Assembly: GCA_964035545.1 (NCBI GenBank)
Contig: OZ037771.1
Span: forward strand, 6,481,190 to 6,545,189
Reading direction: 5' to 3'
Length of the DNA: 64,000 nucleotides
Source: Bugula neritina
Lineage: Eukaryota > Animalia > Bryozoa
Shown here: positions 1 through 40,500 of the stretch, one piece after another
How the letters are laid out: each line of letters opens with the position of its first letter
How positions within the stretch are numbered: the first letter of the stretch is position 1
Made by a program: the position numbers and the translations under genes
Notes under the pieces: generated by a model
Database searches by the model: none
What the model was told of the DNA's origin: nothing
The model's input: only the letters and a program-made list of their open reading frames with translations

Positions 1-1343
1 GTCCCCGGTCCAGAAGATCCCGTACTTGTCGGCTAACCTCCTTCTCTTTCTCCGGCCCCAGCCTGCGCGTGGGCTGCCGGACAGGGACTGTCCCTGCAGT
101 CAGCGGTATTTCGTGTCTGACAATTCCAGTCAGTCCCACGTCATGCTCTCCGCTGCTGAACACATCACCGTAGTCGCGTAGTAACTTGGCCATAGCTTGG
201 CGTTCTCTGTTACTCGCGCAGCCGCCACTGGCTGTTTCGTATAACTCCCGGAGATGTGTTGGGACTGCCCCTCGTCCCTGAATAGGGTGTCGAGGGGGTG
301 CCTCCGTCGCGTCACCCAGCGACGGGCCCACGTCCTCTTCCTGGACGGAGTGGAACCGGCCCAGCATTGACCCAGCTGGGAGCTCAATGGGCTCGGTAAA
401 GGGTTGACGCACTGCACTAATACCTCCCCTCGCTCAGTTAGTCGGTTTAAACTACTGGCGAGTTGGATCTTTTCGTGCGCGCTTTCAACGACCCCGAGCC
501 TGGCTATCCGGTTGCTGTTCACTCGGCAGTGGATAGTAGCTCTGGAGCGTCCGGGTACGGTGCAGTTTCGAACTACCTGAACACCGCCCACCAGAGGACG
601 CCCAAACTTATCCACACAGGCGAGTTCTCGCCCGCCCATCAGCACCACCGACTTACTGAAATCTATTCGGCACTGGTGTTGCTTCAAGAAGGGCATTCCG
701 AGGATAGCATCTTCCTCCAGTTGACCTATGATAAAGGTCTCCTGTACAGCCTGATCTCGGACACGCCCAGGGAGCTCGATAATACCATAAAAGGGGATAC
801 ATGACCCGTCTGCCAGGGTGCCATGTTCTCCAGTATACGGTCGTACTCTATCCCTGTCCCGGCGGGGCAGTGCCTCAAAGACTCTACGACTGAGAAGGTT
901 GGTAGTACAACCGGAGTCGAGCAGGAAAGTGACGGCGTTGCCGGCCACCTTTCCGGGTAGGAAATAGCTCTCTCCATGTGGTTGTACTTTCACCCCCCCG
1001 CATGTGCTGTCCTGGTTTGACAGGACGGCGGGGGTTTCACCCGTGGTTTACGGGGCTTCCGGCGGCGAGGTGGGTGCCGGCGGGGTTTGGGCCTCTCCAC
1101 TGGGCCTTCTGGCTCCATTTCAGTGGCGGGCTCCTCTTCCCGAGGTAACCGGTGAAACCGGTTAGCGAGTGGCAGGGAGAAGGTACTGGGCCGTTGTGCG
1201 GGCCTACTAGTCCTGCGTGGTACCTGCCACTCGGGTGGAATGTTCCGCCGCGTCCGTACGGACAGACGACGGCGCGTTCCACCATACTCCTTTAGTTGCG
1301 GCCCGCGGGGAGGGAGTGTGTCCGCGGGCCGTGACAGTTTAAC
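1..1343 (-). pseudogene. pol: pol 5' part (protease, RT N-terminus) with two apparent 1-bp frameshifts
   Basis: The -1 frame from the slip site stops just after the G7 run at 993-999 while the protease continues in another frame; a second shift at 401-403 (CCC vs CCCC in copy 2). Confidence 0.8.
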
Positions 1344-2158
1344 GCCCCCTGGTATTGGGGTCGTCCTTTCTGTCCCTGGTCCTGATCAGCGCTACTCCAG
1401 CCCTGCCCCACAGGTGTTGGGGGCATCCGCAAGGCCTGACCGGGGCCAGCACCGGCCAGAATGGTTACCAATTGTCCCAGCATCTCTACCATACGGTCCA
1501 TTTCGGCTTCCAGCGGGAGGGCTTCGGAGCCTGTCGTAGCCCTGGCAGCGCTGACTCCAACTACTGGTGGGTTCCTTTGTGCTCGATGCATTTGGGTAGC
1601 CAACAGGTAAGCTTCTCCAGCCTTCAGGGCATCCTCTATTCTGGTTATCCCTTTAGCTCGTAGGTGATGGTCTAGGCCCAGGTCGTTTAGGGACTGGACA
1701 AAGGCGTCATAGGTGTAACGCTCTTGGTGTTGTGCTGGCAGATCGCTATATGCAATCCGCGCCAGCTTCTTCACCGTCGCGGCATGTTCTTGCAGCGAGG
1801 TCCGCGGGGTGCGGCACAATCTCTCCAGCTTGGTCCTAGCGTCTATGACGGAGGTGCCAAAACGGGCCCGCAGCGCAGCCAGTATCCCGTCTACGTCCGT
1901 TCCCACTCCGTACGGCTTGGCTTGCTCCGTCACCGCTCTCCGCAATTGAATAAGGGCCACTCTATGCGGCCATTGAGCAACTTCCATTACCTCTCTAAAT
2001 TCTTGTATAAATTGTTCGACATCTTCCGACCCAGTAAAGGTGGGAGCTTTCAAGCAATGTCTATAAGCTTCTTCTCCTTCACGATTCACAGGATTAACAG
2101 CATTTCTACGCTCACCTTCTACTGGGGGTGGTTGCATTCTAGCATTTTCAGTCTCCAT
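1292..2158 (-). CDS. gag: Gag (288 aa) of Gypsy copy 1; no CCHC knuckle visible
   Basis: LKAPTFTGSEDVEQFIQEF...LRARFG, homologous to 15042-15995. Confidence 0.88.
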   Translation of the reverse strand: METENARMQPPPVEGERRNAVNPVNREGEEAYRHCLKAPTFTGSEDVEQFIQEFREVMEVAQWPHRVALIQLRRAVTEQAKPYGVGTDVDGILAALRARFGTSVIDARTKLERLCRTPRTSLQEHAATVKKLARIAYSDLPAQHQERYTYDAFVQSLNDLGLDHHLRAKGITRIEDALKAGEAYLLATQMHRAQRNPPVVGVSAARATTGSEALPLEAEMDRMVEMLGQLVTILAGAGPGQALRMPPTPVGQGWSSADQDQGQKGRPQYQGALNCHGPRTHSLPAGRN

Positions 2159-2172
2159 CTTTGATATACACT

Positions 2173-2190
2173 ATCCCACTGCTGCCACCA
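2173..2190 (-). promoter_or_regulatory. Primer binding site, tRNA-Leu type
   Basis: TGGTGGCAGCAGTGGGAT, one difference from the complement of the metazoan tRNA-Leu(AAG/TAG) 3' end. Confidence 0.8.
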
Positions 2191-2191
2191 C

Positions 2192-2495
2192 TGTTATGTT
2201 TTTCAGTTTTGGGGTTGATGTGCCACCAAGAGAGTCTATTTATCACTAGAGAAACTTCACCAGTTAAGTCGAGTAGATATCGTTATATTTAATACAAGAA
2301 TACATAATAAAATCCAATGTACAACAGTAATGATACGCACGTCTATTTAATTTACAGCACTATCCTCAACTGAGCTAGTAGCGCGAAGCGGCTACTATTA
2401 CTTATCAAACAGCCTAGCTAATTGGCTAATACATTGTTCCGGGTCAATACGCAACCTTGCGTATTGTGTTGCTGGTAGCTCCACGAGCCACCACA
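2192..2495 (-). repeat. 5' LTR of Gypsy copy 1 (304 bp)
   Basis: TG...CA termini; alignable with, but diverged from, LTR 14706-15010; followed by PBS after 1 nt. Confidence 0.9.
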
Positions 2496-14705: not shown

Positions 14706-15010
14706 TGTGGTGGTTCGTGGAACTACCAGCAGCACAACATGTAGGGTCGCGCAATTGACCCGGAACAATGGACAACCAATTAGCGTAGTTGATAGTTAGC
14801 AGCAATTGTAGTTTCCCGCTGCTAACTCAGTCGAAGCTAGAGTGTGAAATAGATTAGATGTGTAACTTGTTTGAATATAATGTATCGTTTTTATAATGTA
14901 TAATTGTGTGTAAAATATACTCGTTCACTCGACTTATCCTGGTGCAGTTCTATAGCAAATAAATAGACTCTCTGGATAGCACATCAACCCTAAATCTGAA
15001 AAACATAACA
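14706..15010 (+). repeat. 5' LTR of Gypsy copy 2
   Basis: TGTGGTGG...CATAACA direct repeat of 21905-22209. Confidence 0.97.
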
Positions 15011-15011
15011 G

Positions 15012-15029
15012 TGGTGGCAGCGGTGGGAT
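15012..15029 (+). promoter_or_regulatory. Primer binding site, tRNA-Leu
   Basis: TGGTGGCAGCGGTGGGAT, complement of the tRNA-Leu(AAG/TAG) 3' end ATCCCACCGCTGCCACCA. Confidence 0.88.
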
Positions 15030-15041
15030 AGTGCATCCAAG

Positions 15042-15995
15042 ATGGAGACTGAAAATGCTGGAACTCAACCACCGGCAATCGAAGGTGAGCGTAGAGACAA
15101 TGCTGTAGAGACAATGCCTGTTAACCATGTAGTAGAAGAGCGAAGGGTTCCGCGAGAACTAGCTGAGGACCGCTACAGGTTAAAGGCGCCCACCTTCACG
15201 GGTGAAGAGGAGGTGGAACAATTTATCCAAGAGTTTAGCGACGTAATGGACGTCGCTCAGTGGCCCCCTAGGGTGGCCTTGCTGAAGCTTAGAATGGCAT
15301 TGATGGACAAAGCCAAGCCCTATGGGCTGGGCGTAGACATTGATAATATCTTTGCTTCTCTGCGGGCCCGCTTTGGCCTCTCTGCTACAGATGCCAGGGC
15401 CCGATTGCAGAGGTTGCGGCGTGATCCCCGCACCCCGCTGCGGGAGCATGCCGCCGCGGTCATGAAGCTGGCACAGATCACGTACAGCGACTTGCCCCCA
15501 GTCAACCGCGAGAGGTACACCCTCGACGCTTTCATAGCATCTGTCGACGATCTGGGTCTCCACCACCAGTTTCTAGCTAGGGGAGTCACCACCGTTGAAG
15601 ATGCTCTGACTGAGGGGGAAGCTTACCTCCTAGCTAATCAAATGCATAAAAGTCGCGGAAGCTCCCGCCAAGTGGAGATAGACCGCGCAGACACGGCCGC
15701 GGGACAAGGGGAGGAAACCCCCGCCGCGGCTGCCGTGTCCCAGTTGGCGACGGCATCAAAAGTCACTCAACTGACGGACATGCTAGCCAAGCTGATAGCA
15801 ACACTGACACCACAAAACCCAGTGAGTACCGCCCCTGAGCCCATGCGGCCATCGGCGCCGCCACAGGGGGAAACAGTCAGTTTTTGCTGGGAGTGCGGAA
15901 ATCAAGGACATTTCCGCCGATATTGTCCCTTCCTAAATCAGGGGTTAAACTACCGCGGCCCGCAGATGTTTCCACCTTCCGCGGGCCGACGATGA
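15042..15995 (+). CDS. gag: Gag (317 aa) with CCHC knuckle
   Basis: CWECGNQGHFRRYC; ATG 12 nt after the PBS. Confidence 0.93.
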   Translation: METENAGTQPPAIEGERRDNAVETMPVNHVVEERRVPRELAEDRYRLKAPTFTGEEEVEQFIQEFSDVMDVAQWPPRVALLKLRMALMDKAKPYGLGVDIDNIFASLRARFGLSATDARARLQRLRRDPRTPLREHAAAVMKLAQITYSDLPPVNRERYTLDAFIASVDDLGLHHQFLARGVTTVEDALTEGEAYLLANQMHKSRGSSRQVEIDRADTAAGQGEETPAAAAVSQLATASKVTQLTDMLAKLIATLTPQNPVSTAPEPMRPSAPPQGETVSFCWECGNQGHFRRYCPFLNQGLNYRGPQMFPPSAGRR

Positions 15996-18900
15996 AACCT
16001 CCAGGGAAGAAGAAACGCAGGTCACCCAGACGGGTACCGCGTACTGGCAACCAACAGTGGCAACAGCCACGACGGACCAGCAAGGGGCTTCGCCCCGCAG
16101 CTGCCTTTTCTATGCCCCTTCACAACAGATTCACAGGGCTACAAGTCCAAGAATCTGGATGGGAGCCCACAAAGGTAGCTGAGAATCTAGCCTCGGCACC
16201 CCCGAGGCCTACCTACCACCGCCCTCAGAGACCTCCTTCGCGACCCAAAGCGAGGGAGGTACTCCCTGCAAGAGTAAGGCCTGAAGGGAGAGTTCAGGTG
16301 CAGTCCCATGGGAACAGCTATTTCTTGCCCGGTAAACTGGAAGGCAAAGCTGTTACTTTCCTCATTGATTCGGGCTGTACCACAAACCTCTTAAGCCGCC
16401 AACTCTTCGACACCCTCAGTACTAGGGTCAGGGGCGAGATGGAAGCATACGAAGGGGAATACGGCACCCTCGCCGACGGGTCGTGCCTTCCCTTCTATGG
16501 TATAATTGAGCTGACGGGACGAGTCCGTGATCAAACGATCCAAGAGACGTTCATCGTCAGTCAGCTCAAGGAGGATGCTATCCTCGGGATGCCGTTCCTT
16601 AAACGGCACGGATGTCACATAGATTTTAGCAGATCTGCAATGATGATGTCCGGGCGGGAACTCGCCTGCGTCGACAAGTTCGGCCGCCCTTTAGTGGGAG
16701 GTGTACAAGTGGTACGCAACCGTATCATACCAGGCCGCTCCCGGGCTACCATTCACTGCAGGGTGAATAGTAGCCGGATCTCTGGACTCGGGGTGGTTGA
16801 AGGCGCGCACGAAAAGATCCAACTTGCCAGCAGTCTGAATCAGCTGACTGAGCAAGGGGAGATCTTAGTGCAGTGTGTCAACCCCTTTACCGAGCCTATC
16901 AAGCTCCCGGCTGGGTCGATGCTGGGCCGTTTTCACTCTGTTCAGGAGGGAGACGTAGGCCCGTCGCTGGGTGATGCGACGGAGGCACCCCCTCAGTGCC
17001 CTATTCAGGGACGGGGGGCAGTCCCAACACATCTCCGGGAGTTATACGAAACAGCCAGTGGCGGCTGCGCGAGTAACAGAGAACGCCAAGCTATGGCTAA
17101 GTTACTACGCGACTACGGTGATGTGTTCAGCAGCGGAGAGCATGACGTGGGACTGACTGGAATTGTCAGACACGAAATACCGCTGACTGCAGGGACAGTC
17201 CCTCTCCGGCAGCCCACACGCAGGCTGGGGCCGGAGAAAGAGAAGGAGGTTAGCCGACAAGTACGGGATCTTCTGGACCGGGGACTGATAGAGCCCGCCC
17301 ATAGTGCGTGGAGCTCGCCAGTCGTACTGGTCCGGAAGAAAGACGGCAGTTGGCGGTTCTGTGTGGACTACCGCAAACTCAATAGCGTAACCATACAGGA
17401 CACCTACCCTCTACCTCGTATTGACGAGTCATTGGACGCCCTAGCCGGCAGCAAGTACTTCAGTACGTTAGACTTGCTAAGCGGCTATTGGCAGGTTCCT
17501 CTGAGTCCCGACGCCCAAGAGAAAGCGGCGTTTATCACACGGGACGGTTTGTGGAAGTGGAAGGTGCTGCCCTTCGGGTTAACCTCCACCCCAGCCACCT
17601 TCCAGAGGCTGATGGAACAAGTCCTTAGCGGACTCCATTGGAAGACACTGCTGGTCTACCTCGATGATGTCATCGTAATCTCTCCAGACTTCGAGACACA
17701 TGTCAGTCGTCTGCAGGAGGTTTTCGAGAGACTCCGAGGTGCCGGTCTTAAGCTCAAACCTTCCAAGTGCGCTCTATTGCAGCCGGAGGTCAAGTATCTG
17801 GGGCACGTTGTCGGTCGAAACGGCGTGGCAACGGATCCCGAAAAGGTACGGGCAGTAGAAGACTGGGTCACCCCCCAAGACTTGACCGGACTCCGGGCTT
17901 TCTTGGGGCTGGTAGGGTATTACAGGCAATACGTACCAGACTATGCGGGCATAGCCCAGCCGTTAAACCGGCTCACCGCAAAGGGAGTGACATGGCAGTG
18001 GACTCCAGTCGAGCAAGAAGCGTTCGACCGCCTCAAGGGCTGCCTACTAACGGCGCCCATCTTGGCCTACCCAGACCCCACTCTGGAGTACATCCTAGAC
18101 ACGGACGCCAGTGACCAAAATGTTGGCGCTGTGCTGTCACAAGTGCAGGAAGGCCGAGAGGTAGTAGTAGCCTACTACAGCAAGTCTCTCTCACCCGCTG
18201 AACGAAATTACTGCACTACCCGCAAGGAGCTGCTGGCAGTAATCAAGTCAGTGAAGCACTTCAGACCATACCTATATGGCAGGAAGTTCCGGCTGCGTAC
18301 GGATCATGCCTCGCTGATCTGGTTGTGCAGGAGAGCAGAGCCCTCTAGTCAGGTCGCCCGGTGGCTCGAAATCCTAGCTGAATTCTCATACCGGATCGAA
18401 CATCGACCGGGCAAGAGACACAGCAATGCGGATGGGTTGAGTCGCCGACCTGACGGAGGTTGCAAACAGTGTCTCAACATCGAGAGGAGGGATGGAGGTC
18501 CCCCGCGATGCGAGTTGGAGACGCTGGCTCATCACGGAGCACCGTTTGACTGGGACCAGGATCAACTCAGGCAAAGAGTTGATGAGTCGGAGGATGTACA
18601 AAACCTCCGCGCCAACCCTGTACTGGCCGGTAATGTTCGAGAGCTGAAGAAGCTCCAAGAAGAGCTGCCTGGAGTCGTGGCAGACATATACCGGGCCAAA
18701 AGGGAAGGGCGACGACCCAGCGAGGAACGCATACGACAGGGATGCGCCGAGTTCCGGCTATACTGTCAGCGTTGGGACTCGCTGCGGATCGGGCAGGATG
18801 GGTTACTAACCATCTCTCTAGCTGCCAGCGGCAGACACCCGGAAAGGAAGAGGGTAATCTGCCCCACAGCCATCCGCCGTGAGTTGATTTGGGATACTCA

Positions 18901-20512
18901 CAAGCAGGCCCACGCAGGGGTCAAGCGAGTGATGTCCAAATTACGACTTCGGTGGTATTGGCCACAAATGGAGCGTGATGTCCGGCTCAGAGTCAAACAG
19001 TGTGAGATCTGCCAGGCCAGTAAGCATAGCCGCCCCCCTGGTGAAGCAGGACGGCGGAGGCTATACGCTGGTAGGCCCTGGCAAGTAGTCGCTGTAGACC
19101 TGGTCGGACCCATGCCCCTGACCCCCAGAGGCAATAATTGGATCCTAGTACTAACCGACCACTTTACTAGGTGGGCGGATGCTCTGGCTATCCCAGATGC
19201 ATCAGCCCCAACAGTGGCCAGGGCACTAGACCAACATGTATTCTGTTATTTTGGGCTCCCCGAACAGATACACTCTGATCAAGGCGCTCAATTCCAGTCT
19301 CAACTGATGAGCGACCTTTGCCGCCTCTGGGGAGTAAATCAGAGCAGGACCACCCCCTACCACCCTCAAGGTAACGGGGTGGTGGAGCGCAACAACCGGA
19401 TGCTAGGTGATGCACTCCGGAGTCTCCTCCTTGGACGAGGTCAAGAGGAATGGGATACGGTGTTGCCGCAAGTCATGCGTGCATACCGTAGCACCCCACA
19501 CACCAGTACTGGTGAGACCCCAAACCTCTTGATGCTCGGGAGAGAGACTCGTGTCCCTGACCATCTCACCTATCACGTTCCAGAGCAAGATAACTCAGTC
19601 CACGAGTATGCCAGTGAACTAGTGGAACGGATGAAGGCCGCACACGATATACTGCGCCAACAGCAGTGGAAGGTGCGGCACGAAGATTCCGATGAACCAC
19701 CTCTCTATCAAACGGGAGATAAGGTGTGGATGGTCAATTACCGTAGGCGCCGCGGACAGGCTGATAAGCTGAAGCCTAAGTTCGTAGGCCCCTACGTGGT
19801 CGTCGAGGCTATGCCCAATCATACGTACAAGATTGAGCGCTCAGGACAGGTGTCTATCCAGAATGAGTCTCGCTTGAAACCGTATTGGGCTAGCCCCGGC
19901 GGAGTGGGAGAAGCCCCCCCGTTGTTAGAGCCCAGGAGGCAAACAACAACGCGCGGGCGACGGCGGCATGGACCTGAATACGAAGTGGTCATACCGCGGG
20001 AAGAAAACTTGGTGAGAGAGGAGCGGCAGCTTTTGTCAACAGAAGCGTGTCCGCCACCACCAAGTCTAATTCCATCACTTCCAGAAACCGAGCCGGTTCC
20101 GGAAGTGCAAACCCCCACGGAGGGAGGGGCTCCATCCGGAGAACAAGAAGAGGTGACTGCTAACGGTGAAGTAGAGACGCCATTAGAGGCCCCTACTAAC
20201 GAACCGGCAAGCGTGTCACCCCCCCTAGAAAGGGGACAGCGTACGAGGCAACCCCCCGCATACTTGAAGGACTTCGTATGTGACTGCGTTAAAAGCGGCA
20301 CACATGAAAGTCTAGGGGAAAACCGTACGAGAAAAGAATCGAGCAAATGTGGGAGTTGTCAACACCACGGAAATATCAACTTTTGTATCGGCGGAAATAG
20401 AAACAAAATTTATCCGCCGGGTGCACAAAGTCTTAATCACGCACCCCAACCACGTTGCTCGATCTTTTCATACGCCGATGCAGTCAGGAGTAGACGTGTT
20501 TCTAAGCAGTAG
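15884..20512 (+). CDS. pol: Pol polyprotein (PR-RT-RNaseH-IN), likely entered by frameshift near 15950
   Basis: LIDSGC; YLDD; DTDASD...ADGLSR; HKQAH...CEIC; VDLVGP/HSDQG/VVER; GPY. Confidence 0.96.
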   Translation: MLGVRKSRTFPPILSLPKSGVKLPRPADVSTFRGPTMKPPGKKKRRSPRRVPRTGNQQWQQPRRTSKGLRPAAAFSMPLHNRFTGLQVQESGWEPTKVAENLASAPPRPTYHRPQRPPSRPKAREVLPARVRPEGRVQVQSHGNSYFLPGKLEGKAVTFLIDSGCTTNLLSRQLFDTLSTRVRGEMEAYEGEYGTLADGSCLPFYGIIELTGRVRDQTIQETFIVSQLKEDAILGMPFLKRHGCHIDFSRSAMMMSGRELACVDKFGRPLVGGVQVVRNRIIPGRSRATIHCRVNSSRISGLGVVEGAHEKIQLASSLNQLTEQGEILVQCVNPFTEPIKLPAGSMLGRFHSVQEGDVGPSLGDATEAPPQCPIQGRGAVPTHLRELYETASGGCASNRERQAMAKLLRDYGDVFSSGEHDVGLTGIVRHEIPLTAGTVPLRQPTRRLGPEKEKEVSRQVRDLLDRGLIEPAHSAWSSPVVLVRKKDGSWRFCVDYRKLNSVTIQDTYPLPRIDESLDALAGSKYFSTLDLLSGYWQVPLSPDAQEKAAFITRDGLWKWKVLPFGLTSTPATFQRLMEQVLSGLHWKTLLVYLDDVIVISPDFETHVSRLQEVFERLRGAGLKLKPSKCALLQPEVKYLGHVVGRNGVATDPEKVRAVEDWVTPQDLTGLRAFLGLVGYYRQYVPDYAGIAQPLNRLTAKGVTWQWTPVEQEAFDRLKGCLLTAPILAYPDPTLEYILDTDASDQNVGAVLSQVQEGREVVVAYYSKSLSPAERNYCTTRKELLAVIKSVKHFRPYLYGRKFRLRTDHASLIWLCRRAEPSSQVARWLEILAEFSYRIEHRPGKRHSNADGLSRRPDGGCKQCLNIERRDGGPPRCELETLAHHGAPFDWDQDQLRQRVDESEDVQNLRANPVLAGNVRELKKLQEELPGVVADIYRAKREGRRPSEERIRQGCAEFRLYCQRWDSLRIGQDGLLTISLAASGRHPERKRVICPTAIRRELIWDTHKQAHAGVKRVMSKLRLRWYWPQMERDVRLRVKQCEICQASKHSRPPGEAGRRRLYAGRPWQVVAVDLVGPMPLTPRGNNWILVLTDHFTRWADALAIPDASAPTVARALDQHVFCYFGLPEQIHSDQGAQFQSQLMSDLCRLWGVNQSRTTPYHPQGNGVVERNNRMLGDALRSLLLGRGQEEWDTVLPQVMRAYRSTPHTSTGETPNLLMLGRETRVPDHLTYHVPEQDNSVHEYASELVERMKAAHDILRQQQWKVRHEDSDEPPLYQTGDKVWMVNYRRRRGQADKLKPKFVGPYVVVEAMPNHTYKIERSGQVSIQNESRLKPYWASPGGVGEAPPLLEPRRQTTTRGRRRHGPEYEVVIPREENLVREERQLLSTEACPPPPSLIPSLPETEPVPEVQTPTEGGAPSGEQEEVTANGEVETPLEAPTNEPASVSPPLERGQRTRQPPAYLKDFVCDCVKSGTHESLGENRTRKESSKCGSCQHHGNINFCIGGNRNKIYPPGAQSLNHAPQPRCSIFSYADAVRSRRVSKQ
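15944..15998 (+). promoter_or_regulatory. -1 programmed ribosomal frameshift signal (G_UUA_AAC plus GC-rich stem-loop)
   Basis: Heptamer in gag frame, 5-nt spacer, stem 15956-65/15979-88; pol is in the -1 frame; conserved in copy 1 (1299-1343). Confidence 0.8.
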
Positions 20513-20536
20513 TTCAAACCATTTCACACATTCAGT

Positions 20537-21614
20537 ATGTCTTACGACAACAGATCGTGGGGTGAGTTAACTATATCTTAATACGAAACTAGATTGCATC
20601 GCTCAGCTCTGACTCACTGAGTCAATCGAGCTGGAGATAGGTTAGTGAAATACCGTAGTAAGAACTCAGTTTGACTTAGAGATTTTTATAATCTCATTGC
20701 AATACGTGTTCTATCTGACTATTCACTACCATTAATCTCTACGAGGTAACTGAATTAGGAGTTGCCAAGCTGTTCAAGCTGACAACACAGCAGTGTACTG
20801 TATTAACACTGTTGAAACTTTTTCAGATTACACTCGACCCGCTACAACCAGGGTACGGGATAGAACACTTCCCGCTCCGTATCCGGAGGAGTATGCTAGT
20901 GGTGACCGGCCTGAGCCACTACGCCGCCGTTGGCGGTGGGTGTCTCCACAAACAGAGGAAGAAATAGAAACGGCCTGGGGGTCCAGAGGACGGACGAGAT
21001 GCCAGATCTGTGGTGAAGATTGCGCCTCTCACCGCTCCCTTAAACTACACGTCAATGCTCATCTCCTACTAACATTCTGCCCCTGCGGGTACAATGATGT
21101 GTATCCCTACCCCGTCACCAGACACCGAGCGGCGGGCTGTTTCCCTGGAGAAAACTACGTGGTCGACGCTAAGCTATACCCGGAGTTCCTCACACTTATA
21201 CGACCTCTGGTGAAGAAGGCCATGCTATTAGCCGTTCTGTCCTCGGGGTTCCAACGTGTGTTAGACAACGCCCGCCAACAATCCCCGTTGGTGTCTGACC
21301 GCCCTCAAATTACATACACCCCCGAAGAAACTACATATCCAGAAGAAGGAGAGATCTCCCCTACCCCGACGAAGAGACGAACCAGGTCCCCCAGTCCACC
21401 CTTGCGCCGCAGACGGACATCGTCCCCAGACCCAGTACGCCTAGCCACAGTAGAAGAACGCCTCCTACGATTACAAGAAGAGTTCACCCAGCTGGCACCA
21501 GATCTACTTAACACTACAACAGGACTCTTCCAGCTAAAAGGATCCGTATGCCGTATGAAACGGAAACTGCGTACATGCCAAGCCAAGCACCGGCGTGCCC
21601 AACAAGGACTCTAG
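20537..21614 (+). CDS. Spliced ORF3 of Gypsy copy 2: C2H2 + C2HC zinc fingers, Arg/Ser/Pro-rich basic tract, C-terminal coiled coil (exons 20537-20561 or 15042-15084 joined to 20827-21614)
   Basis: 262 open codons after acceptor TTTTTCAG|AT at 20826; both candidate donors are phase 1 and restore GAT(D) in frame; CQIC-x12-H-x3-H and CPC-x12-H-x4-C. Confidence 0.75.
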
Positions 21615-21904
21615 TTAGACTACCCGGGGTACTCCAACTCCGCCTCTTGGGAGAAGCCAAGATGTCATGTAAATGTTTGACTGCTTAACAGGTTATCCCC
21701 TGTCTAACACCACAGCTAGCTAGTATTCCTCGTCTATCTACAGCTGGCCAATTGTATGCAACGGATCGTTATAATGATTCCGTCTATTATTATGTCTCTT
21801 CCTGTATATTATGTATTGTTTTGTCCACTGATGTATGCGGTTACCAATGAATGTTTTTTATATATATATATATCAGAAAGATGGCTTTCTGCTGGTGGGG
21901 GCGG

Positions 21905-22209
21905 TGTGGTGGTTCGTGGAACTACCAGCAGCACAACATGTAGGGTCGCGCAATTGACCCGGAACAATGGATAACCAATTAGCGTAGTTGATAGTTAGCA
22001 GCAATTGTAGTTTCCCGCTGCTAACTCAGTCGAAGCTAGAGTGTGAAATAGATTAGATGTGTAACTTGTTTGAATATAATGTATCGTTTTTATAATGTAT
22101 AATTGTGTGTAAAATATACTCGTTCACTCGACTTATCCTGGTGCAGTTCTATAGCAAATAAATAGACTCTCTGGATAGCACATCAACCCTAAATCTGAAA
22201 AACATAACA
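21905..22209 (+). repeat. 3' LTR of Gypsy copy 2
   Basis: Direct repeat; preceded by the G-rich PPT-like GGTGGGGGCGG. Confidence 0.97.
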
Positions 22210-31500: not shown

Positions 31501-34500
31501 GGGCCGGATCCGGCCCGCGGGCCGCCTGTTGGACAGCCCTGGTATAGATACTCTTGCAATTACATAACCTGACTAGCAGCTTAGTTCTGTCATATATTGG
31601 TTTACCATTATAAACTCATATTCTTATTAGTGGTGTGTCATTCATTCTTATGTAAACTGTAACCTATTATTACTACATGACCAGTTGTCATTGTATTTAC
31701 TCATCCCTGTTTAACTTGTTAGTCAGTTGCCTGCTAGTGCTCTATTAATATAGACATATGCTACACAAGCTACTTCAAATTCATATTGTCACAGCAAACA
31801 CAAAAAATAACAGACATCATTTGACACCGCTTGAAATTATCAAGATTATATTTGCTCTCTACAAATTTCAACTAGTTCACTAGCTCCAGCTATTATCAAG
31901 TGCCAGAGGGTTCTTAGTTAGCACTGACTGTGCTGCAAAAAGCTTTTCTTTAAAGGTTCTTCTTATAGCGAAGATAGCTATTCAAACTCACACTAATTTC
32001 ACTACATATATTATGTTATGTAACATATAATACATGATATGTAGTATAAAATAATATACAATATGTTATATTACATATTATGCAACATAATAATATGTAG
32101 TGTAGCATTATATGTAATATACTATACGACATATTATATTACAAATAGTACATAATATATTACGAAATGTATTACAATATGTAATAAAAGATATAATATG
32201 GCATTAGAATATCAATAACCAAAACAAATTAGATACAATATGAGTAAATATATAATAACGTTACATATAATGTTTTTAGAGCAAATGCATGAACCTGCAT
32301 CCATCTTACACTATTACATAATATTTTGAGAAACGTAGGTCAACTATTTGTTTGGTCTGATGAACCTGTCACCCGATGGCTCTAAACCTGTATTCATTTT
32401 AAAATTCCACAGGCTTGGTTGCTGTCACTGCAACACTTGCTGAGAAGTCTGCCTACATCAGAGCACTCAACGGAGAAGGAATGTACGAGGTATTGCTCCA
32501 GTATGGTGGAATATACACATATGATGCGCTTTACGACGAGTTGGTGTGCTTTCACTTCAGCCTACAACAGCCAACTGCAGTAAGTATATAAAATGTGTGA
32601 CACTTTATCTGTCTGTCTGCATGTCTGTTGTTCCTCCTGGGACATTAGGAGAGGGCATTGATAGAATACGGAAAGGGGTAATGGTAGAACAAGGAAAGGG
32701 GTAACGGTAGAATATTGTGAAGGAGGTATTTCTCATTGGTAGGTTACTGTAAAGAGGCATTATAGTAGGGTAATAGAAAGGGCATTGGTAGGCCACTGGA
32801 ATAAGATATTACAGGGAACATTTTTTACTTTTAATTGAAATGCAGCTGCATGTATATGGCTGAACAAATATACATTGCATATAATAGGTTATGAGGTAGT
32901 AGTACTAATTAATGTAACTGTATGCTCACAGTACTAATAAAAACTAAAATGCTATTAACATTTAAGTCAACACTATAAAACTGCATTGTGAGCACTACAA
33001 CTAACATACTGCAGTAGATACATTCATTTGAATTGGTAAATATACATTAGAAAGCTTGTAAAATGATTTAGTTTTTTTGTTTACATAATATACAGTTAAT
33101 AGTATTTGTTTCTACAATAGGTTATATATGAAATATAATCATCAAAAATCTAGATAGTTGTCACAAAACTGTTGGTAGCAGTGTGACGAGTTCGAAAAGT
33201 CTGGTAGTCAGAAGTGTATAGACAAGTAGCATACAGCTTGCTAATCCAGTTGTGAGTAAATAGAGTTGTGGATATATAAAGTAGACTTTATTTCTCTAGT
33301 AAGATATGCACAGATGAATTTGTAAAAATGAACTCCGAGAATGAACTGAACTGTAAACACAACTGCCTCAGTATTTATAGTAAACAAAAAGCTCTAGAAT
33401 ATTCTCAAGCATTCCAGTACAGAAGATTCTAGTAGAAAACATTCCCCACATGCCAATACTATTTATAGAAAAACAAAACAAAACATTGGAATTTCCATGG
33501 TTATTGCGCAACACCTTGTTTACATTGCTGGGCAGTAGTTAACATGACTAATGAAAACAATAACAATGAACAATGACCCATCTCTTTGATCAGTCTAGAA
33601 TATTTATGAACATTCGTGTATAATCATTAGGAAAAACCCGGTAAGTCTATAGGTATATGTCCACTCAGAATTTGTGACAACCCCCCATTCTAAGAGAAAT
33701 TATTTTGATAATTTCTCCTTACTACTTAAAATTCTGAGTCAATTCGGCTTAGATAATCGGCTCCAACATTGTCCTTTCCTTTGATTGACTCCACCTTGAT
33801 TCTGAAGTTCTGTAAATACATAGCCCATCTCATCACTCTGCTGTTCTCAAATTTGGCCTGATTGATGTACACCAGCGGTTGGTGATCAGTCTGCAGCACG
33901 AACTCCACACCATATAAATACTGTAGATATTTCTTGACCGCCCATACCACAGCTAAGCATTCCTTCTCTATGGCTGAGTAGTTTCTCTCTCGGTCTAGTA
34001 ATTTCCTACTTGCGTAACTCACAGGGAACAGCTTTCCATCCTGAGGCTGCATCAGCACTGCCCCTAACCCAACATCTGATGCATCCGTCCTTAGCACAAA
34101 CGGTTTGTGTACATCTGGCAATTTTAAAATTGGTGCACTTGTCAGCATTGTTTTTAAGGTGGTGTACGCCTTCTCTTGTGGTTCCTGCCATTTGACTTTC
34201 TTTGGTTCTCCCTTCTTTGTTAAATCTGTTAGTGGACTCGCTATAGTTGAATAATGAGGTATATATTCTCTGTAGTAACTAGTAAGTCCAATGAACGATC
34301 TCACTTGCGTCTTATTGGTTGGCCTTGGCGCAGCCCTAATTTTCTCAATGTTGTCATCCATTGGTTTGATTTCACCCCTGTAAAGTTTATGTCCGATGAA
34401 CTCCATGTTTGTTCCTCCTACTCTACATTTACTTGGTCTAACGGTAAGTCCAGCTGTGGCAAGTCGGCTGAAAACTTCTGTTAGCATTTTAACGTGTTCT

Positions 34501-37500
34501 TCCCAACTTTCCGTGTGCACTAGAATGTCATCAATGTAGTTGTCCACTCCTTTCAGATTTACAAAAAGTTTTCTCAACCCTCTCACCAGTGTCGCTCCAG
34601 AGTTAACCATCCCAAATGGCATCTTGATGAATTCATAATGTCCATCGGGTGTCACAAATGCAGTTTTAGGAATATCTTCTTTCTTCACTGGTATTTGCCA
34701 GTATCCCTTGGATAAATCAAGTTTGGTAAAGTATTTATCTTTACTGAGCTTTCTGAAAACGTCATCTGTTTTCACCATTGGTTCAGGATCGAATACTGAG
34801 ACTCGGTTTAGTTTGCGATAGTCTATACAAATCCTGTTGCTTCCATCCGGCTTCTTTACTATCACCGTTGGTGAGGCGTAGGGAGAGGTAGATGGCCGAA
34901 TAACACCCATCTTCAACATGTCCTCGATGTCCGCCTTGAGAGTTTCTCTTACCCTGTAGGGCAATCCATATGGTTTGGATTTCACTGGCTCATCAGTCGT
35001 GAGCTCGATAGAATGTTCTATTCCCGTTGCATTTCCTGGCAAGTCACTGAAGATACCTTCAAACTTTCTCAGTAACTCCTCCAACTGTCTTCTTTGCTGA
35101 TTCTCCAGCTCTTCACCCAGAATGACATCTTTGCTTGTTTCTGTCTGCTGTTTCTTACTGTACAGGTCCAACAAATCATCTTGGCCTTCTTCTCTTTCCT
35201 CATCATGATCAATAATTCCAGTACCAGCAGCATCTAAAGTCATCACAGCTCCAACAGTCATAGGGTCGGTAGGCGTCTCCCGCTCAAAATATTTCTTCAG
35301 CATGTTGGCATGGTATGTTCTCCTCTTGTCTCTAATGTTGATAATGTAGTCATTCAGTCTGACTTTCTCCTCAATATTGAATGGTCCTTGCCAATGCATC
35401 AGCAATTTATTTCCATCCGTAGGTAGAAGAATGAGCACTTTGTCACCAGATTTGAAGTCTCTCTGCTTAGCTTTCTTGTCAAAATAGTGTTTGTATCTTT
35501 TTTGACTGTCTTTTAGCGAAGCTAGTGCCATTTCCATCATGTCATCTAAACGCTCTCTCAATTCAAAAACATGTTGATAGCAGGTCTTGACTTCATCGGC
35601 AGTGTCTTCTTTTGTCCAAAGTTGTCGCAGGATGTACATTGGTCCACGCACAGTTCTTCCATAGAGTAACTCGAATGGGGCGAAGCCTGTTGATTCCTGT
35701 GGGACTTCTCTATATGCAAATAGAGCCGCATTGATAAACCGATGCCACTGTCTTGGCTCTTTAGCACACAACTTTTTTAACATACTCTTGAGGGTTCCGT
35801 TGAACTTTTCCACAAGTCTATTGGCCATTGCATGGTATGGTGAGGTAGGAAGTTGCCGCATGTCAAGTAATCTGGTAAACTCTTTCATGTAGTCTGAGAT
35901 GAATTGAGTTCCTTGATCGCTTATCACCTCCTCTGGTATCCCAACACGACTGTATATGTCAAGCAGCGCTTCAGCTACAGTAGCTGAGTCAATGTTCTTC
36001 AATGGTGTAGCTTCAGGATATCTTGTAGCATAGTCAACTAAAGTTAGGATGTAGCGGTGTCCTTTCTCACTTGGAGGGTTAATTGGTCCGACTAGGTCTA
36101 TTGCACATCTCTTGAATGGGGTGTCAATTAGTGGAGTTTCCTGTACTGGAACTTTCATGACTGAGCCTTTTTTCACCGTCTTCTGGCAAATGTCACATGA
36201 TTGACAGAAACGTACGACATCTCCGTTTAGTCCTGGCCAGAAGAAGTTGAAAAGCACTCTATCAGTGGTTTTCTTTACTCCTAGGTGTCCGCTCATTATG
36301 CAGTCATGAGCTTTCTGTAGAACTTCCTTCCTCAGTGAACTGGGTACCATGAGTTGTTTAACAGGTTTTACACTGACAGACTTCGAGTCGGTGTACTCAC
36401 GGTACAGAATCTTATTCCTCACCACAAACCTAGTGGTGCATCCCTTTTTCTCCTTCACTTCTTTTGCATCGAAGAAACGCTCCAATGTGGGGTCATCCCT
36501 CTGCAGTCTGGCTACTTCATCTTTCCCTATACTTAATGGGTTAGCATTTGAATCAATCATCAGTGGTTTGTCTCCTGACTTCTCCTTGACAGCTTGAGCT
36601 CTTGTGGTTACGGCGCAGTCCTTCCAGTTTTCCAGCGGCTGGTCAGCTGATCTCGCTCCGTCCACATTCCCAATAAGCAGGTCACAAATCGTCTTGTCCA
36701 TTACTGCAGCTTTGACGACACCATTGTAAAATGGTGAGCGTACTGAGATAAGTGCCCACTGAGCATCCCTAACACTTGCATCAGCCATCTTCAAATAAAC
36801 TGATTCTCCAGTTAAATGTTGAGGTTGCACGTACTTTGCATTGACTACAATGCAACCACAGCCGGTGTCGCGCATTACAGTAGCTCGTTGGCCATTAACT
36901 TCCGCATCAAATATCGCTGTGCCCCCATCTTTGAATTTAGGTCCATTCTTGCAGACAGCAGCGTTGACAAACTTTTTACCATTAACTGTGATTTCCATAG
37001 GTTCTTCCACTTCAGATGAGATTCCTGGATCTTTGACCACAGTCTTATTCTGAGTAGTCGCTATTGCAGCAGCAGCATGCACTGACCTTCCACCATACTT
37101 TCTGCAGTCAGAAGTATTGTGATTGTTCATCTTGCAATGTGAACAGTACTTCTTCCCTCGCCGTGGGCAGTTGCGAGCCATGTGTGACTTATCTTTGCAG
37201 ATGAAGCATGCACCATCGCTTTTACTTCCTTGTTCAGCATTCATGCTACTGGCAGGTGTGTTTTCCATCCTTTTTGTATTAGTTTTCTTTGTCTTTGCTA
37301 GTTTCCTTCCACGAGCGTGCAAGAACAGTGACGCTGCATCACACATATCCTCACTGCTGTTGTAGGAACTTTGCTTTAAATGCACAGCTAGGTCGTCTGG
37401 GCATGATGATATAAATTGTTCAGTTGCCACTAGTTTGGCTATGTCCATGCCCCCTGAAAGTTCTACCCACTTGTGCACATAAGTTTCTATCCTAGTGAAT

Positions 37501-40500
37501 AGTTGGGCAGGAGTTTCATCCTCGTAAGCTTCTGCCTCTCTGAGCTTTTTTCTGTAGCCCTCTTGAGTCAAGTTAAAGCGCTCCAATAAGGCTTCTTTGA
37601 CTTTTTTATAATCTCTACGATCGGTAGGTGACAACCGGATGTAAGCTTCTGTTGCTGTACCCCTTAGGTACTGACTGAGATGGTAGGGCCAATCTCCCTT
37701 GTCCCAATTACATCCTTCGGCAACCCACTCGAACCGCTCTAAATAGCTATCCATTTCGTCCACCTTCTCATCAAAGAATGGTATTTTTGGTTTTGGTTTG
37801 TTAGCTATTTCTAACCTGGTGCTCTCATGTTTTGAGTGCTCCAAACTTGTGTTAGCTTTCAGCTTTTCCATATCCAATTCATGTTGTTGTCTTCTCTCTT
37901 CTGCCTCCTGGTCAGCTTTTATCTTGAGTGCCATTGCCTCCTGATCAGCTTTTATCTTCATCTCCATTATGGCTTTCTCATTTTCTTGCTTGATCCTTTC
38001 CGCCTCACGCTCTAATCTACGCTCCTCTCGGTCCTTTTCTTTTTCCTCTCGGTCCTTTTCTTTTTCCTCTCGTGCCTTTTCTTTTTCCTCTTGTGCAGCA
38101 ACAATGGGTAGGTTCTTTTCAATAAAAGCTACGAGCTTGTCCTCCACCAATCCAAGATCTTTACCCATCTGTGTCACTCTCTCCAACAACGCCATAATGT
38201 CTCAACAACTGTTAATTAATCCTGTGTATACTCACGTTGTAACTAATAACTTCCCTGTGTGCGACTGAGACTTCCCGGAGCAGCCCCCAATTGTCACAAA
38301 ACTGTTGGTAGCAGTGTGACGAGTTCGAAAAGTCTGGTAGTCAGAAGTGTATAGACAAGTAGCATACAGCTTGCTAATCCAGTTGTGAGTAAATAGAGTT
38401 GTGGATATATAAAGTAGACTTTATTTCTCTAGTAAGATATGCACAGATGAATTTGTAAAAATGAACTCCGAGAATGAACTGAACTGTAAACACAACTGCC
38501 TCAGTATTTATAGTAAACAAAAAGCTCTAGAATATTCTCAAGCATTCCAGTACAGAAGATTCTAGTAGAAAACATTCCCCACATGCCAATACTATTTATA
38601 GAAAAACAAAACAAAACATTGGAATTTCCATGGTTATTGCGCAACACCTTGTTTACATTGCTGGGCAGTAGTTAACATGACTAATGAAAACAATAACAAT
38701 GAACAATGACCCATCTCTTTGATCAGTCTAGAATATTTATGAACATTCGTGTATAATCATTAGGAAAAACCCGGTAAGTCTATAGGTATATGTCCACTCA
38801 GAATTTGTGACAATAGTACATTTGGATATTTCCCTATAAAAAAGAAATATTTGTCTTTCTAGGTTAGACCATAGGTGGTCCTTTGATACATTAGAAGGCA
38901 ACTATAAATACAATACAATACACTTATAAAAATTACATTGAAAATTAACACTAAATTATTAGTTGCTTAGCTAGAAAAAGAACATATTATAATATATATC
39001 GCTAGTAGAATGTGTCATGACAACTTGTTTATAATAATATTACATCACTAAATTATGCTTACAGTAATGTACATTAACAGCAGCTAATGATATTATATAG
39101 AAAGTGGTGAAGACTAAAAAGCCACTACAATATATTAGTACATGATTAGTGATGTGCTGGTGATATTCTGTAGAATGTAATCTATAAGCCGGCATTGATG
39201 AAAGGAGAAGATCAGCCCATCCCTATCGTGCCACCTGTGTATTGCTCTAGTCAACCACACTTCTGCAACTTTACCTACAATGTTACTGTGGATAGAAATA
39301 CGCTGCCAACCCACTATGTGCTTGCATTACACAAGTCTGGCAGGGCTATTTATAGAACAAAATTTATAATAAACTTAGAAGAAGGTGAGTGATATTAAGG
39401 TGTGTACGAATTCATTTGCAAGAGAATTTTGCTTCTCATATCATCATGGCAGTCATAATTAAGTTAAGTTGACTAACCATACAAGGGTAGACAAATCTAA
39501 ATGTTGAAATGTTTAATTTAAGTCATTTTTCAGCCTTATCTGTTTCATAGATTTATTTTCCTGCATAAGATTAATGTAGTTAATGAACTCTCAGCTAAAT
39601 GTGAGAAACTTTTATGACAGAAAATAGCTGACAAATTGTAGAACCCAGACCTTTACGCTGGCAAGAAGCTCCTTACATGGAGGAGAGAGATAACTCCATA
39701 CACCTGGAAGCTCAGGCCACAGGCTATCCGAGGCCAGACGAATATATCATCACAAATTCTACAGATCATATTATCTACAGGAAGAGAACGGAGCGAGGTA
39801 AAAGCAGCAGTATTAGACTTTAAATCGAGAGCTCAATAAATCGATGCAATGAAATATATGAAAACGAATGTTTAAAGCTGGCCTCTACACTAAAATTAGC
39901 ATAGATTACGGTAGACATTTGGTCAAATGAGCAAAGTTAAGGTTTATAGTTTGTTTAATTTAGTGTCACACCAATGCATTATTTAAAAAGGGGCAAAAAA
40001 TTTGCAATCTTAAAAACATGCAGTCTTAGTTTCAGAAAGAGTATTTTGGAATGATACATCAGAACTATTTTTGACGGCTAAAAACCGAATTGGTGAAATC
40101 ACGGAGCCAATAGCTTCCCGTGAAATCTCAACAGCATTGCAGGTGTCTGCCGCTTCTCAGAACCAAAAACGTAAGACAGGTGAGTGATAACTTATCAGCC
40201 AAGTATTAGCTCAGAGAAATTTACCTGTGTGCAGGTAAATTCGAAAATTTACCTGCACACAGGAGGTAGTTGCAATAATGGAGAAATTGAGAAAAGCCTG
40301 TGTTCTAGATTAGAAGCGTAGCAAAAGAAGTTATAGTCTCAAGAGAATTTCAACCAACACCCAAACCAAAATTTACTTAAAAATTAAAAAACTTAAGCTA
40401 TCTCAATTTCTCCACTACTGCTCCTAAAGTTTGTATAACAACACATATTGACATGGCTAACACATGTAGCAGGACCAGTATTGTATGGCATGGTGTGATT

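What the first reader, a model, noticed from the sequence alone, without database searches (positions are those of the whole stretch)
20513..21614. Gypsy element with a spliced, non-Env third gene encoding a tandem zinc-finger / RS-rich / coiled-coil protein
Seen: between the pol stop and the 3' LTR of an intact young element is a 262-codon open frame lacking its own ATG but preceded by a polypyrimidine acceptor (TTTTTCAG|20827). It encodes a canonical C-x2-C-x12-H-x3-H finger, a second C-x-C-x12-H-x4-C finger, a basic Ser/Pro tract (KRRTRSPSPPLRRRRTSSP) and a C-terminal heptad-like stretch, with no signal peptide or C-terminal TM. Known: env genes of errantiviruses and retroviruses occupy this position and are expressed by splicing, but they are membrane glycoproteins. 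Inference: an element-encoded nuclear accessory factor (transactivator, RNA export/splicing regulator or anti-silencing protein), making this a 'complex' Gypsy lineage. I do not recognise the protein family.
Basis: partly seen in the sequence, partly recalled or inferred. Interest (0 to 1): 0.9.

Follow-up and report, generated by a model that had tools for sequence, protein, structure and literature searches.

The report
Spliced zinc-finger gene in Gypsy retrotransposons
A young virus-like jumping gene carries, where retroviruses keep their envelope gene, a conserved gene for a zinc-finger and zipper protein with no named family; it is very likely made by splicing and likely helps the element's full-length RNA leave the nucleus, much as HIV Rev does.

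Summary
An intact Gypsy element (305-nt LTRs, one mismatch) has a 261-residue frame after pol. It encodes two zinc-finger motifs and a leucine-zipper-like end, with no membrane segment. It is a real gene: 72 relatives at 45-98% identity, and 11 of 14 common variants among copies are synonymous. A donor 14 codons into gag joins the acceptor in frame. One relative (P0028) starts with 14 residues identical to a Gag N-terminus and then runs into ORF3, at exactly the junction I predicted. No RNA contig covers the junction. The RS tract is not a family trait (3 of 63). The zinc domain is lineage-wide. It follows integrase in frame in 28 of 115 related Pol proteins (0 of 1110 shuffles) and occurs in 11 of 14 informative loci. 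Some distant elements hold other zinc-finger genes in this slot. No dedicated Pfam family or fold match was found. The closest known system is CERV of C. elegans Cer1. Function is untested: Rev/CERV-like RNA export (0.4), LTR transactivator (0.3), or integrase-linked targeting (0.15).

The parts
14706..15010 (+). 5' LTR (TG...CA), 305 nt
   Evidence: 99.7% identical to the 3' LTR; ATAA duplicated on both flanks
14794..14827 (.). 10-bp perfect inverted repeat in U3 (also present in the 3' LTR); candidate dimer-binding site or hairpin
   Evidence: 2 of 500 shuffles reach 10 bp; a 7-bp counterpart with a paired change sits at the same place in the sister LTR
15012..15029 (+). Primer-binding site, tRNA-Leu-like (assignment recalled)
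   Evidence: the same PBS type occurs in related loci
15042..15995 (+). gag, 317 aa, one CCHC knuckle
15042..15084 (+). Predicted coding part of exon 1: 14 Gag codons plus 1 nt, ending at the donor 15084|15085
   Evidence: Best of 433 GT sites (recalled matrix); same donor and phase in the sister element; Gly-Glu at this place in 30 of 35 Gag N-termini; natural junction in P0028
15085..20826 (+). Predicted intron (gag-pol); its RNA folds more stably than shuffles along most of its length
   Evidence: Mean z -2.3 (37 windows) against -0.1 (8 windows) after the acceptor; synonymous-shuffle control -3.1 against -0.3
15839..20512 (+). pol frame (-1 to gag): protease, RT, RNase H, integrase
20536..20561 (+). 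Possible alternative mini-exon: ATG at 20537 and donor 20561|20562, also in phase with ORF3 (untested)
20827..21614 (+). ORF3 exon, from the acceptor 20826|20827 to the stop
20937..21188 (+). Conserved double-zinc domain: W-x-S/T-x-x-T helix, C2H2 finger, C-x-C...H finger, closing [VI]-D strand
   Evidence: the first seven ligands are kept in 80-84 of 84 non-redundant sequences; model
21372..21428 (+). Basic Ser/Pro tract (likely nuclear-localisation and kinase sites); subfamily-specific
21441..21611 (+). Leucine-zipper-like C-terminal helix
   Evidence: zipper-like ends in 45% of 60 family members against 2% of shuffles
21905..22209 (+). 3' LTR, preceded by a G-rich polypurine-like tract
1..2495 (-). 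Sister element (LTR, gag, 5' part of pol; Gag 47% identical) with the same donor in the same phase; its 3' end lies outside the window

Best explanation
ORF3 is a selected accessory gene of a Gypsy lineage, very likely expressed by splicing 14 gag codons onto the post-pol frame, and its product is likely a nuclear, zipper-oligomerised RNA-binding regulator that would let unspliced genomic RNA escape splicing and be exported, in the manner of CERV or Rev. Shown: the gene, its conservation, its linkage to pol, and the Gag-ORF3 junction in one relative. Inferred: early transcripts splice by default at the strong gag donor and make ORF3. Inferred: ORF3 enters the nucleus through its basic tract and oligomerises through the zipper. 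Inferred: it binds the structured gag-pol intron with its basic zinc domain and shifts output to full-length RNA for Gag/Pol synthesis and packaging. The broader claim, a spliced nuclear regulator of the element whatever its target, I put at about 0.8.
For: The donor and acceptor are in phase. The donor is kept in the sister element and as Gly-Glu in 30 of 35 otherwise variable Gag N-termini. P0028 begins with 14 of 14 residues identical to Gag P0360, then continues as ORF3; I had written this junction down beforehand. In relatives, an acceptor sits within 25 nt before an in-frame ATG in 6 of 11 zinc-finger loci, against 0.63 expected. Purifying selection: 11 of 14 variants are synonymous, P about 5e-4 or less. 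The layout matches CERV: env-position ORF, spliced, N-terminus shared with Gag, zipper, cysteine finger, basic NLS (PMC10309623 sections 4, 9, 15). RNA structure runs through the predicted intron and stops at the acceptor. The finger-1 helix stays basic across very divergent families, with a mostly hydrophobic residue at +6. The inter-finger linker is short and hydrophobic, and finger 2 of this subfamily carries Tyr-Pro-Tyr-Pro. That fits sequence-independent binding better than base reading (own knowledge of C2H2 fingers).
Against: No RNA contig covers either splice site; the junction rests on one database protein whose contig could be DNA or RNA. Finger 1 matches DNA-binding transcription-factor fingers by profile. 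An acidic LxxLL-type motif typical of activation domains occurs in 12 of 27 Pol-fused relatives, against 1.3 expected, though in 0 of 72 close relatives. The intron-versus-exon folding contrast is weak or absent in 10 more distant loci, and its windows overlap. Only generic NES-like patterns occur. Homology to CERV was not tested. L019 and L025 reach the next gag with no zinc-finger ORF, so the gene is dispensable in parts of the lineage.
Confidence: 0.4

Rival explanations
1. ORF3 is a dimeric DNA-binding transactivator of the element's own LTR (works like foamy-virus Tas; comparison recalled), made from the same spliced RNA.
For: Finger 1 is a classical C2H2 finger by profile. The zipper suggests a dimer. 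An acidic LxxLL-type motif occurs in 12 of 27 fused tails against 1 of 27 upstream controls. A 10-bp inverted repeat lies in U3 (2 of 500 shuffles), with a 7-bp counterpart in the sister LTR. Asp at +2 of finger 2 occurs in 56 of 84.
Against: The acidic motif is absent from all 72 close relatives. The linker is non-canonical and finger 2 is proline-rich here. No informative word is shared between the LTR and the region upstream of ORF3: the 9-10-mers found are T-rich but for one 9-mer. The spacer of the inverted repeat differs between the two LTRs (14 against 8 nt).
Confidence: 0.3
2. The domain is primarily an integrase-linked or particle-borne chromatin-tethering module, in the slot where chromoviruses have a chromodomain. 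The separate spliced form supplies it in trans.
For: It is in frame with Pol in 28 of 115 Pol proteins with the first profile and 36 of 120 with a broader profile partly trained on them. Chromodomains occupy this position (PMC2774666, PMC12440569 passages).
Against: Here a stop and a 314-nt gap with 6-8 stops per frame separate it from Pol. In 27 of 36 fused proteins the usual Pol end motif lies upstream of it, and fused loci L004 and L028 keep an internal acceptor plus ATG. Fused and unfused states are intermixed on the integrase tree. So fusion may be a missing stop rather than the working form.
Confidence: 0.15
3. ORF3 is an anti-silencing factor that blocks host chromatin or small-RNA repression of the element.
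For: The element keeps CpG (o/e 0.8-0.9) in a CpG-depleted host (0.37). The linkers evolve fast around a fixed domain.
Against: No enzyme or known silencing-factor domain was found. The CpG pattern is expected of any young insertion. The variants show purifying, not positive, selection.
Confidence: 0.1
4. The frame is a decayed env, a captured host exon or a chance ORF.
For: It has no start codon of its own before the fingers. A few relatives carry two copies of the domain and might be host genes (P0209, P0254, P0288).
Against: No membrane segment. Near-invariant ligands across 84 divergent sequences, 11 of 14 synonymous variants, repeated position after integrase, and a natural Gag-ORF3 junction.
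Confidence: 0.02

Closest known systems
CERV of the C. elegans Gypsy/Ty3 element Cer1 (PMC10309623; abstract and sections 4, 9, 15 read)
   Same: [quoted passage not shown] It has a zipper, a cysteine-rich finger, a basic NLS candidate and proline-directed phosphorylation sites.
   Different: CERV is 517 aa from five exons, with a C4-type loop and a G-protein-like domain, and has no obvious homology outside nematodes. ORF3 is 276 aa from two predicted exons with a C2H2-type double finger, is spread over a large lineage, and is often in frame with Pol. Sequence homology was not tested.
Retroviral regulators from spliced RNA: HIV Rev (as described in PMC10309623 section 15); Tat, Tax, Rex, foamy Tas, HBZ (recalled)
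   Same: Small regulator from the spliced message; basic tract plus oligomerisation region.
   Different: No match to a viral protein by fold (BFVD). To my recollection none of these has a classical C2H2 finger pair.
Non-Env ORF3s of bdelloid LTR retrotransposons: GDSL, DEDDy, coiled-coil, TM types (PMC5408684, passages)
   Same: Same slot; the paper says ORF3s are typically expressed from spliced messages.
   Different: Enzymes or membrane proteins; the word 'zinc' does not occur in that paper.
Chromovirus integrase chromodomain (PMC2774666, PMC12440569, passages)
   Same: A folded domain appended after integrase, as in the Pol-fused relatives.
   Different: A different domain; here it is also, or only, a separate spliced gene with a zipper.
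Errantivirus / retrovirus Env
   Same: Position after pol; splicing from a donor near the gag start (recalled).
   Different: No membrane anchor or glycoprotein character.

Membership tests
Ty3/Gypsy (Metaviridae) LTR retrotransposon | LTRs, PBS, gag, and pol in the order PR-RT-RH-IN | tested here: met
Env (errantivirus/retrovirus ORF3) | Hydrophobic signal and C-terminal membrane anchor | tested here: not met
   maximum hydropathy 1.51; 2 of 72 relatives exceed 2; no Env family in Pfam
CERV-like regulator | Env-position ORF joined to the Gag N-terminus by splicing | tested here: met
   In-phase sites, conserved donor, natural junction in relative P0028; not seen in RNA of this element
CERV-like regulator | Zipper plus metal finger plus basic NLS | tested here: met
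   By sequence and model only; the finger type differs from CERV's
CERV-like regulator | Sequence or fold homology to CERV (H, M, G domains) | not tested
   No CERV sequence was fetched; no library of cellular predicted structures was on hand
CERV-like regulator | Nuclear protein required for export of unspliced RNA | not testable with these tools
   Needs cell experiments
Classical C2H2 zinc-finger protein | C-x2-C-x12-H-x3-H finger | tested here: met
   Finger 1 ligands kept in 81-83 of 84; profile hits to solved C2H2 fingers; ORF3 itself has no zf-C2H2 hit in Pfam
Classical C2H2 zinc-finger protein | Tandem fingers with the canonical TGEKP-type linker (motif recalled) | tested here: not met
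   Five-residue hydrophobic linker; C-x-C second finger with a variable fourth ligand
SR / RS-domain splicing factor | Conserved RS tract and an RRM | tested here: not met
   RS-like tract in 3 of 63; no RRM
Chromovirus-type integrase extension | Domain in frame after integrase | tested here: not met
   Not met in this element; met in 28 of 115 related Pol proteins
Any solved or viral fold | Structural match over the zinc domain | tested here: inconclusive
   No Foldseek hit at E<=0.001; the wide search was filled by coiled coils; the domain-only model was too poor to search

The most novel reading that the evidence does not exclude
A deep radiation of Gypsy elements is 'complex' in the retroviral sense. 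They keep a dedicated spliced slot after pol for nuclear zinc-finger regulators. The slot is filled by this undescribed double-zinc/zipper family and, in distant branches, by other C2H2/C2HC proteins. The same module is also read as an integrase extension in about a quarter to a third of related elements. Rev/Tat-type self-regulation would then be a widespread Metaviridae trait rather than a Cer1 and retrovirus peculiarity.
Probability: 0.35. Interest if true: 0.85.

Novelty: new variant of a known kind. Interest (0 to 1): 0.72.

Why it matters
LTR retrotransposons that splice must still export unspliced RNA, and the only element-encoded solution I found described for Gypsy is CERV in one nematode element. 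This finding supplies a second protein family with no named relatives. It has a defined splice junction, is under purifying selection and recurs across many elements, so the question of how Gypsy elements control their own RNA becomes testable with simple reporters. It also suggests that long integrase tails in many annotated Pol proteins hide a separate gene, and that post-pol ORFs labelled env-like may be nuclear regulators.

Tried and rejected
No host genome is held, so family copies and the sister element's 3' end could not be read. Scans with ORF3 found no confirmed locus in metagenome or viral contigs, nor did the integrase region in viral contigs (one search gave only 6 remote hits). 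RNA run X1 has sparse contigs that miss both splice sites; this is no evidence either way. The joints listed for X2 do not include the predicted one. The homodimer prediction gave no answer (score 0.07). The single-sequence model of the zinc domain failed (pLDDT 41.6) and was not searched. Foldseek on PDB and BFVD gave nothing significant, and the wide search gave only coiled coils at Z<=6.2. Pfam gave no dedicated family in 42 plus 54 members; only generic zinc-finger hits appeared, one above its cut-off. ESM Atlas gave unnamed clusters and generic C2H2 leads. Rfam gave nothing. The 314-nt gap folds with z -3.45 but is not special against the rest of the intron, so I dropped it as a discrete response element. 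A splice fusing the end of integrase to ORF3 was considered; the candidate donors at 20012 and 20276 are out of phase by arithmetic. A shared LTR/internal-promoter motif was not found. A recalled likeness of the acidic motif to UAP56-binding motifs could not be checked (paper not held). Names and accessions of the homologues could not be looked up.

Full report
The element. Window 14706-22209 is an intact Gypsy element. It has 305-nt LTRs with one mismatch and a 4-nt target duplication, a tRNA-Leu-type PBS (assignment recalled), gag at 15042-15995, and a pol frame 15839-20512 with protease, RT, RNase H and integrase. A sister element runs from 2495 off the window start on the minus strand, with Gag 47% identical. 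No host genome is held and the host was not identified.

The observation. ORF3 and all the motifs quoted are present. There is no membrane segment, no in-frame ATG before the fingers, and 6-8 stops in each frame of the 314-nt gap after pol. The C-terminal 57 residues form a heptad pattern and one long helix in the model (mean pLDDT 63.7, finger 1 region 67-87).

It is a selected gene. A protein search gave 72 relatives among 1413 candidates, at 45-98% identity. A profile search of 1.84 billion representatives gave 119. In 84 non-redundant domain sequences the first seven zinc ligands are kept in 80-84 and a tryptophan in 70; the eighth ligand varies. Among contigs of run X2, 11 of the 14 ORF3 variants at 20% or more are synonymous, against 26-32% expected. 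The 4 variants seen in RNA run X1 split 2 and 2. This is a rough count on assembled contigs, not a codon-model dN/dS. The RS tract is not a family trait (3 of 63).

It travels with pol. A profile of 42 close relatives hit the post-integrase tail of 28 of 115 related Pol proteins and 0 of 1110 shuffled tails. A broader profile, partly trained on those hits, found 36 of 120. Of 80 metagenome loci fetched with an integrase alignment, 14 had integrase identity of 48% or more and at least 1.2 kb downstream. Eleven of these carry the domain on the pol strand: 10 downstream of integrase, and L007 upstream of its LTR in a tandem or collapsed contig. L019, L025 and L067 lack it. Several of the 11 are copies of one family. 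Of 25 distant loci (36% or less), none hits the profile significantly, but 6 have other tandem-finger ORFs in the same slot. Five contig lengths are shared between the ORF3 and Gag hit lists, which hints at linkage in the close family. On an integrase tree (131 of 137 rows, FastTree, weak deep support) fused and unfused forms are intermixed; for short-tailed Pol proteins without DNA the state is unknown.

How it is expressed. The best of 433 GT sites in the element lies 43 nt after the gag ATG (approximate recalled matrix). It is in phase with the acceptor at 20826|20827. The sister element has the same donor in the same phase. Gly-Glu, which the donor encodes, is kept in 30 of 35 intact Gag N-termini among 120 Gag hits. 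I noted this prediction. Later I saw that the ORF3 relative P0028 begins with 14 residues identical to the N-terminus of Gag P0360 and then continues with the first ORF3 residues. That is the predicted junction in a family 53% identical to ours. It is one protein on a 5.3-kb contig of unknown type: an RNA contig or a reverse-transcribed spliced copy is the simplest reading, and a chance deletion at those exact bases is less likely. RNA run X1 covers neither site. In distant relatives the pattern differs: an acceptor lies just before an in-frame ATG in 6 of 11 zinc-finger loci, against 0.63 expected (threshold chosen after seeing the data; L001, L008, L010 and L026 do not show it and L040 just misses). 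A second in-phase route through ATG 20537 and the donor at 20561|20562 exists in our element and is untested.

What the protein is. Finger 1 resembles classical C2H2 fingers by profile. The short hydrophobic linker, the C-x-C second finger, the upstream tryptophan helix and the closing strand suggest one compact two-zinc domain (inference). Pfam has no dedicated family. Fold searches found nothing significant but barely tested this domain. Zipper-like ends occur in 45% of 60 members, against 2% of shuffles and 3% of 62 short-tailed Pol ends. In 27 of 36 fused proteins the usual Pol end motif precedes the module, so it is appended after integrase's natural end. An acidic LxxLL-type motif lies between that motif and the fingers in 12 of 27 (1.3 expected), but in 0 of 72 close relatives.

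Mechanism. I favour a CERV/Rev-like role (0.4). The layout matches CERV, which is required for export of unspliced Cer1 RNA (PMC10309623; abstract and sections 4, 9, 15). A strong conserved donor inside gag creates the retention problem. RNA structure spans the predicted intron and ends at the acceptor (mean z -2.3 over 37 overlapping windows against -0.1 over 8), although 10 distant loci show little or none of this contrast. The finger surface looks built for backbone rather than base contacts (inference). A transactivator role (0.3) is supported by the C2H2 finger, the acidic motif of relatives and a U3 inverted repeat. Integrase-linked targeting (0.15) is supported by the frequent Pol fusion. 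None of these functions was tested.

What is known. Ten full-text searches combined gypsy/Ty3/Metaviridae with additional, extra or third ORF, zinc finger, C2H2, accessory, transactivator, spliced, MolGy and Barthez. They returned CERV, bdelloid non-Env ORF3s (PMC5408684, passages), the MDG1 sORFs including a nuclear sORF1 (PMC11952523, passages) and chromodomain reviews (PMC2774666, PMC12440569, passages). In the listings and passages I saw, none described this family. The mollusc and annelid LTR surveys contain neither 'zinc' nor 'ORF' in their main text (PMC6238403, PMC8556966; term search and passages only). I did not read any supplements, and Repbase, Dfam, GyDB and subscription journals were out of reach; the ORF may be annotated there. 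The clade could not be named.

Verdict. The finding is real, conserved and very likely spliced. It is a new variant of a known kind (a complex LTR retrotransposon with a spliced regulator), built on an apparently undescribed and widespread zinc-finger/zipper family. Interest 0.72.

Noticed in passing
L026:5823-6668, L027:5912-6793, L028 Pol tail (acceptor 5518), L030:6257-7036, L040:6092-6631, L043:2075-2740: Distant Gypsy elements (integrase 33-36% identical) carry other tandem C2H2/C2HC finger ORFs after pol, five of six with an acceptor-like site just before an ATG. L027, L028 and L030 form one family and end in TQT-like motifs (LC8-binding type, recalled).
   Followed up: partly
window 33158-38590, minus strand: A second young LTR element with near-identical LTRs, a weak SCAN-like match in Gag and integrase before RT (Gmr1-type order, name recalled); it has no ORF3-type domain and no RNA-folding bias.
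   Followed up: partly
window 15085-20826: Ordered RNA structure throughout gag-pol, strongest near 19356-19555 (z -6.4), ending at the acceptor; also seen in the sister element's gag-pol.
   Followed up: partly
window 20610-20624: Two AP-1-type heptamers (motif recalled) in inverted orientation one base apart; they are the only two in the element and lie in the pol-ORF3 gap.
   Followed up: no
window 20788-20814: A 9-bp hairpin just upstream of the acceptor, enclosing a possible branch point.
   Followed up: no
proteins P0209, P0254, P0288: Carry two copies of the double-zinc domain; they may be domesticated host genes or duplicated ORF3s.
   Followed up: no
L019, L025: Close relatives arranged so that pol runs to the next gag with no zinc-finger ORF: apparent loss of ORF3.
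   Followed up: partly
window about 20470-20495 and several Pol tails: A short S/T-Y-A-x-x-V motif recurs near the end of Pol in this element and in relatives (P0080, P0109, P0117, L010); meaning unknown.
   Followed up: no
P0309, P0419: Gag hits fused directly to RNase H or integrase domains, suggesting internally deleted elements in the close family.
   Followed up: no
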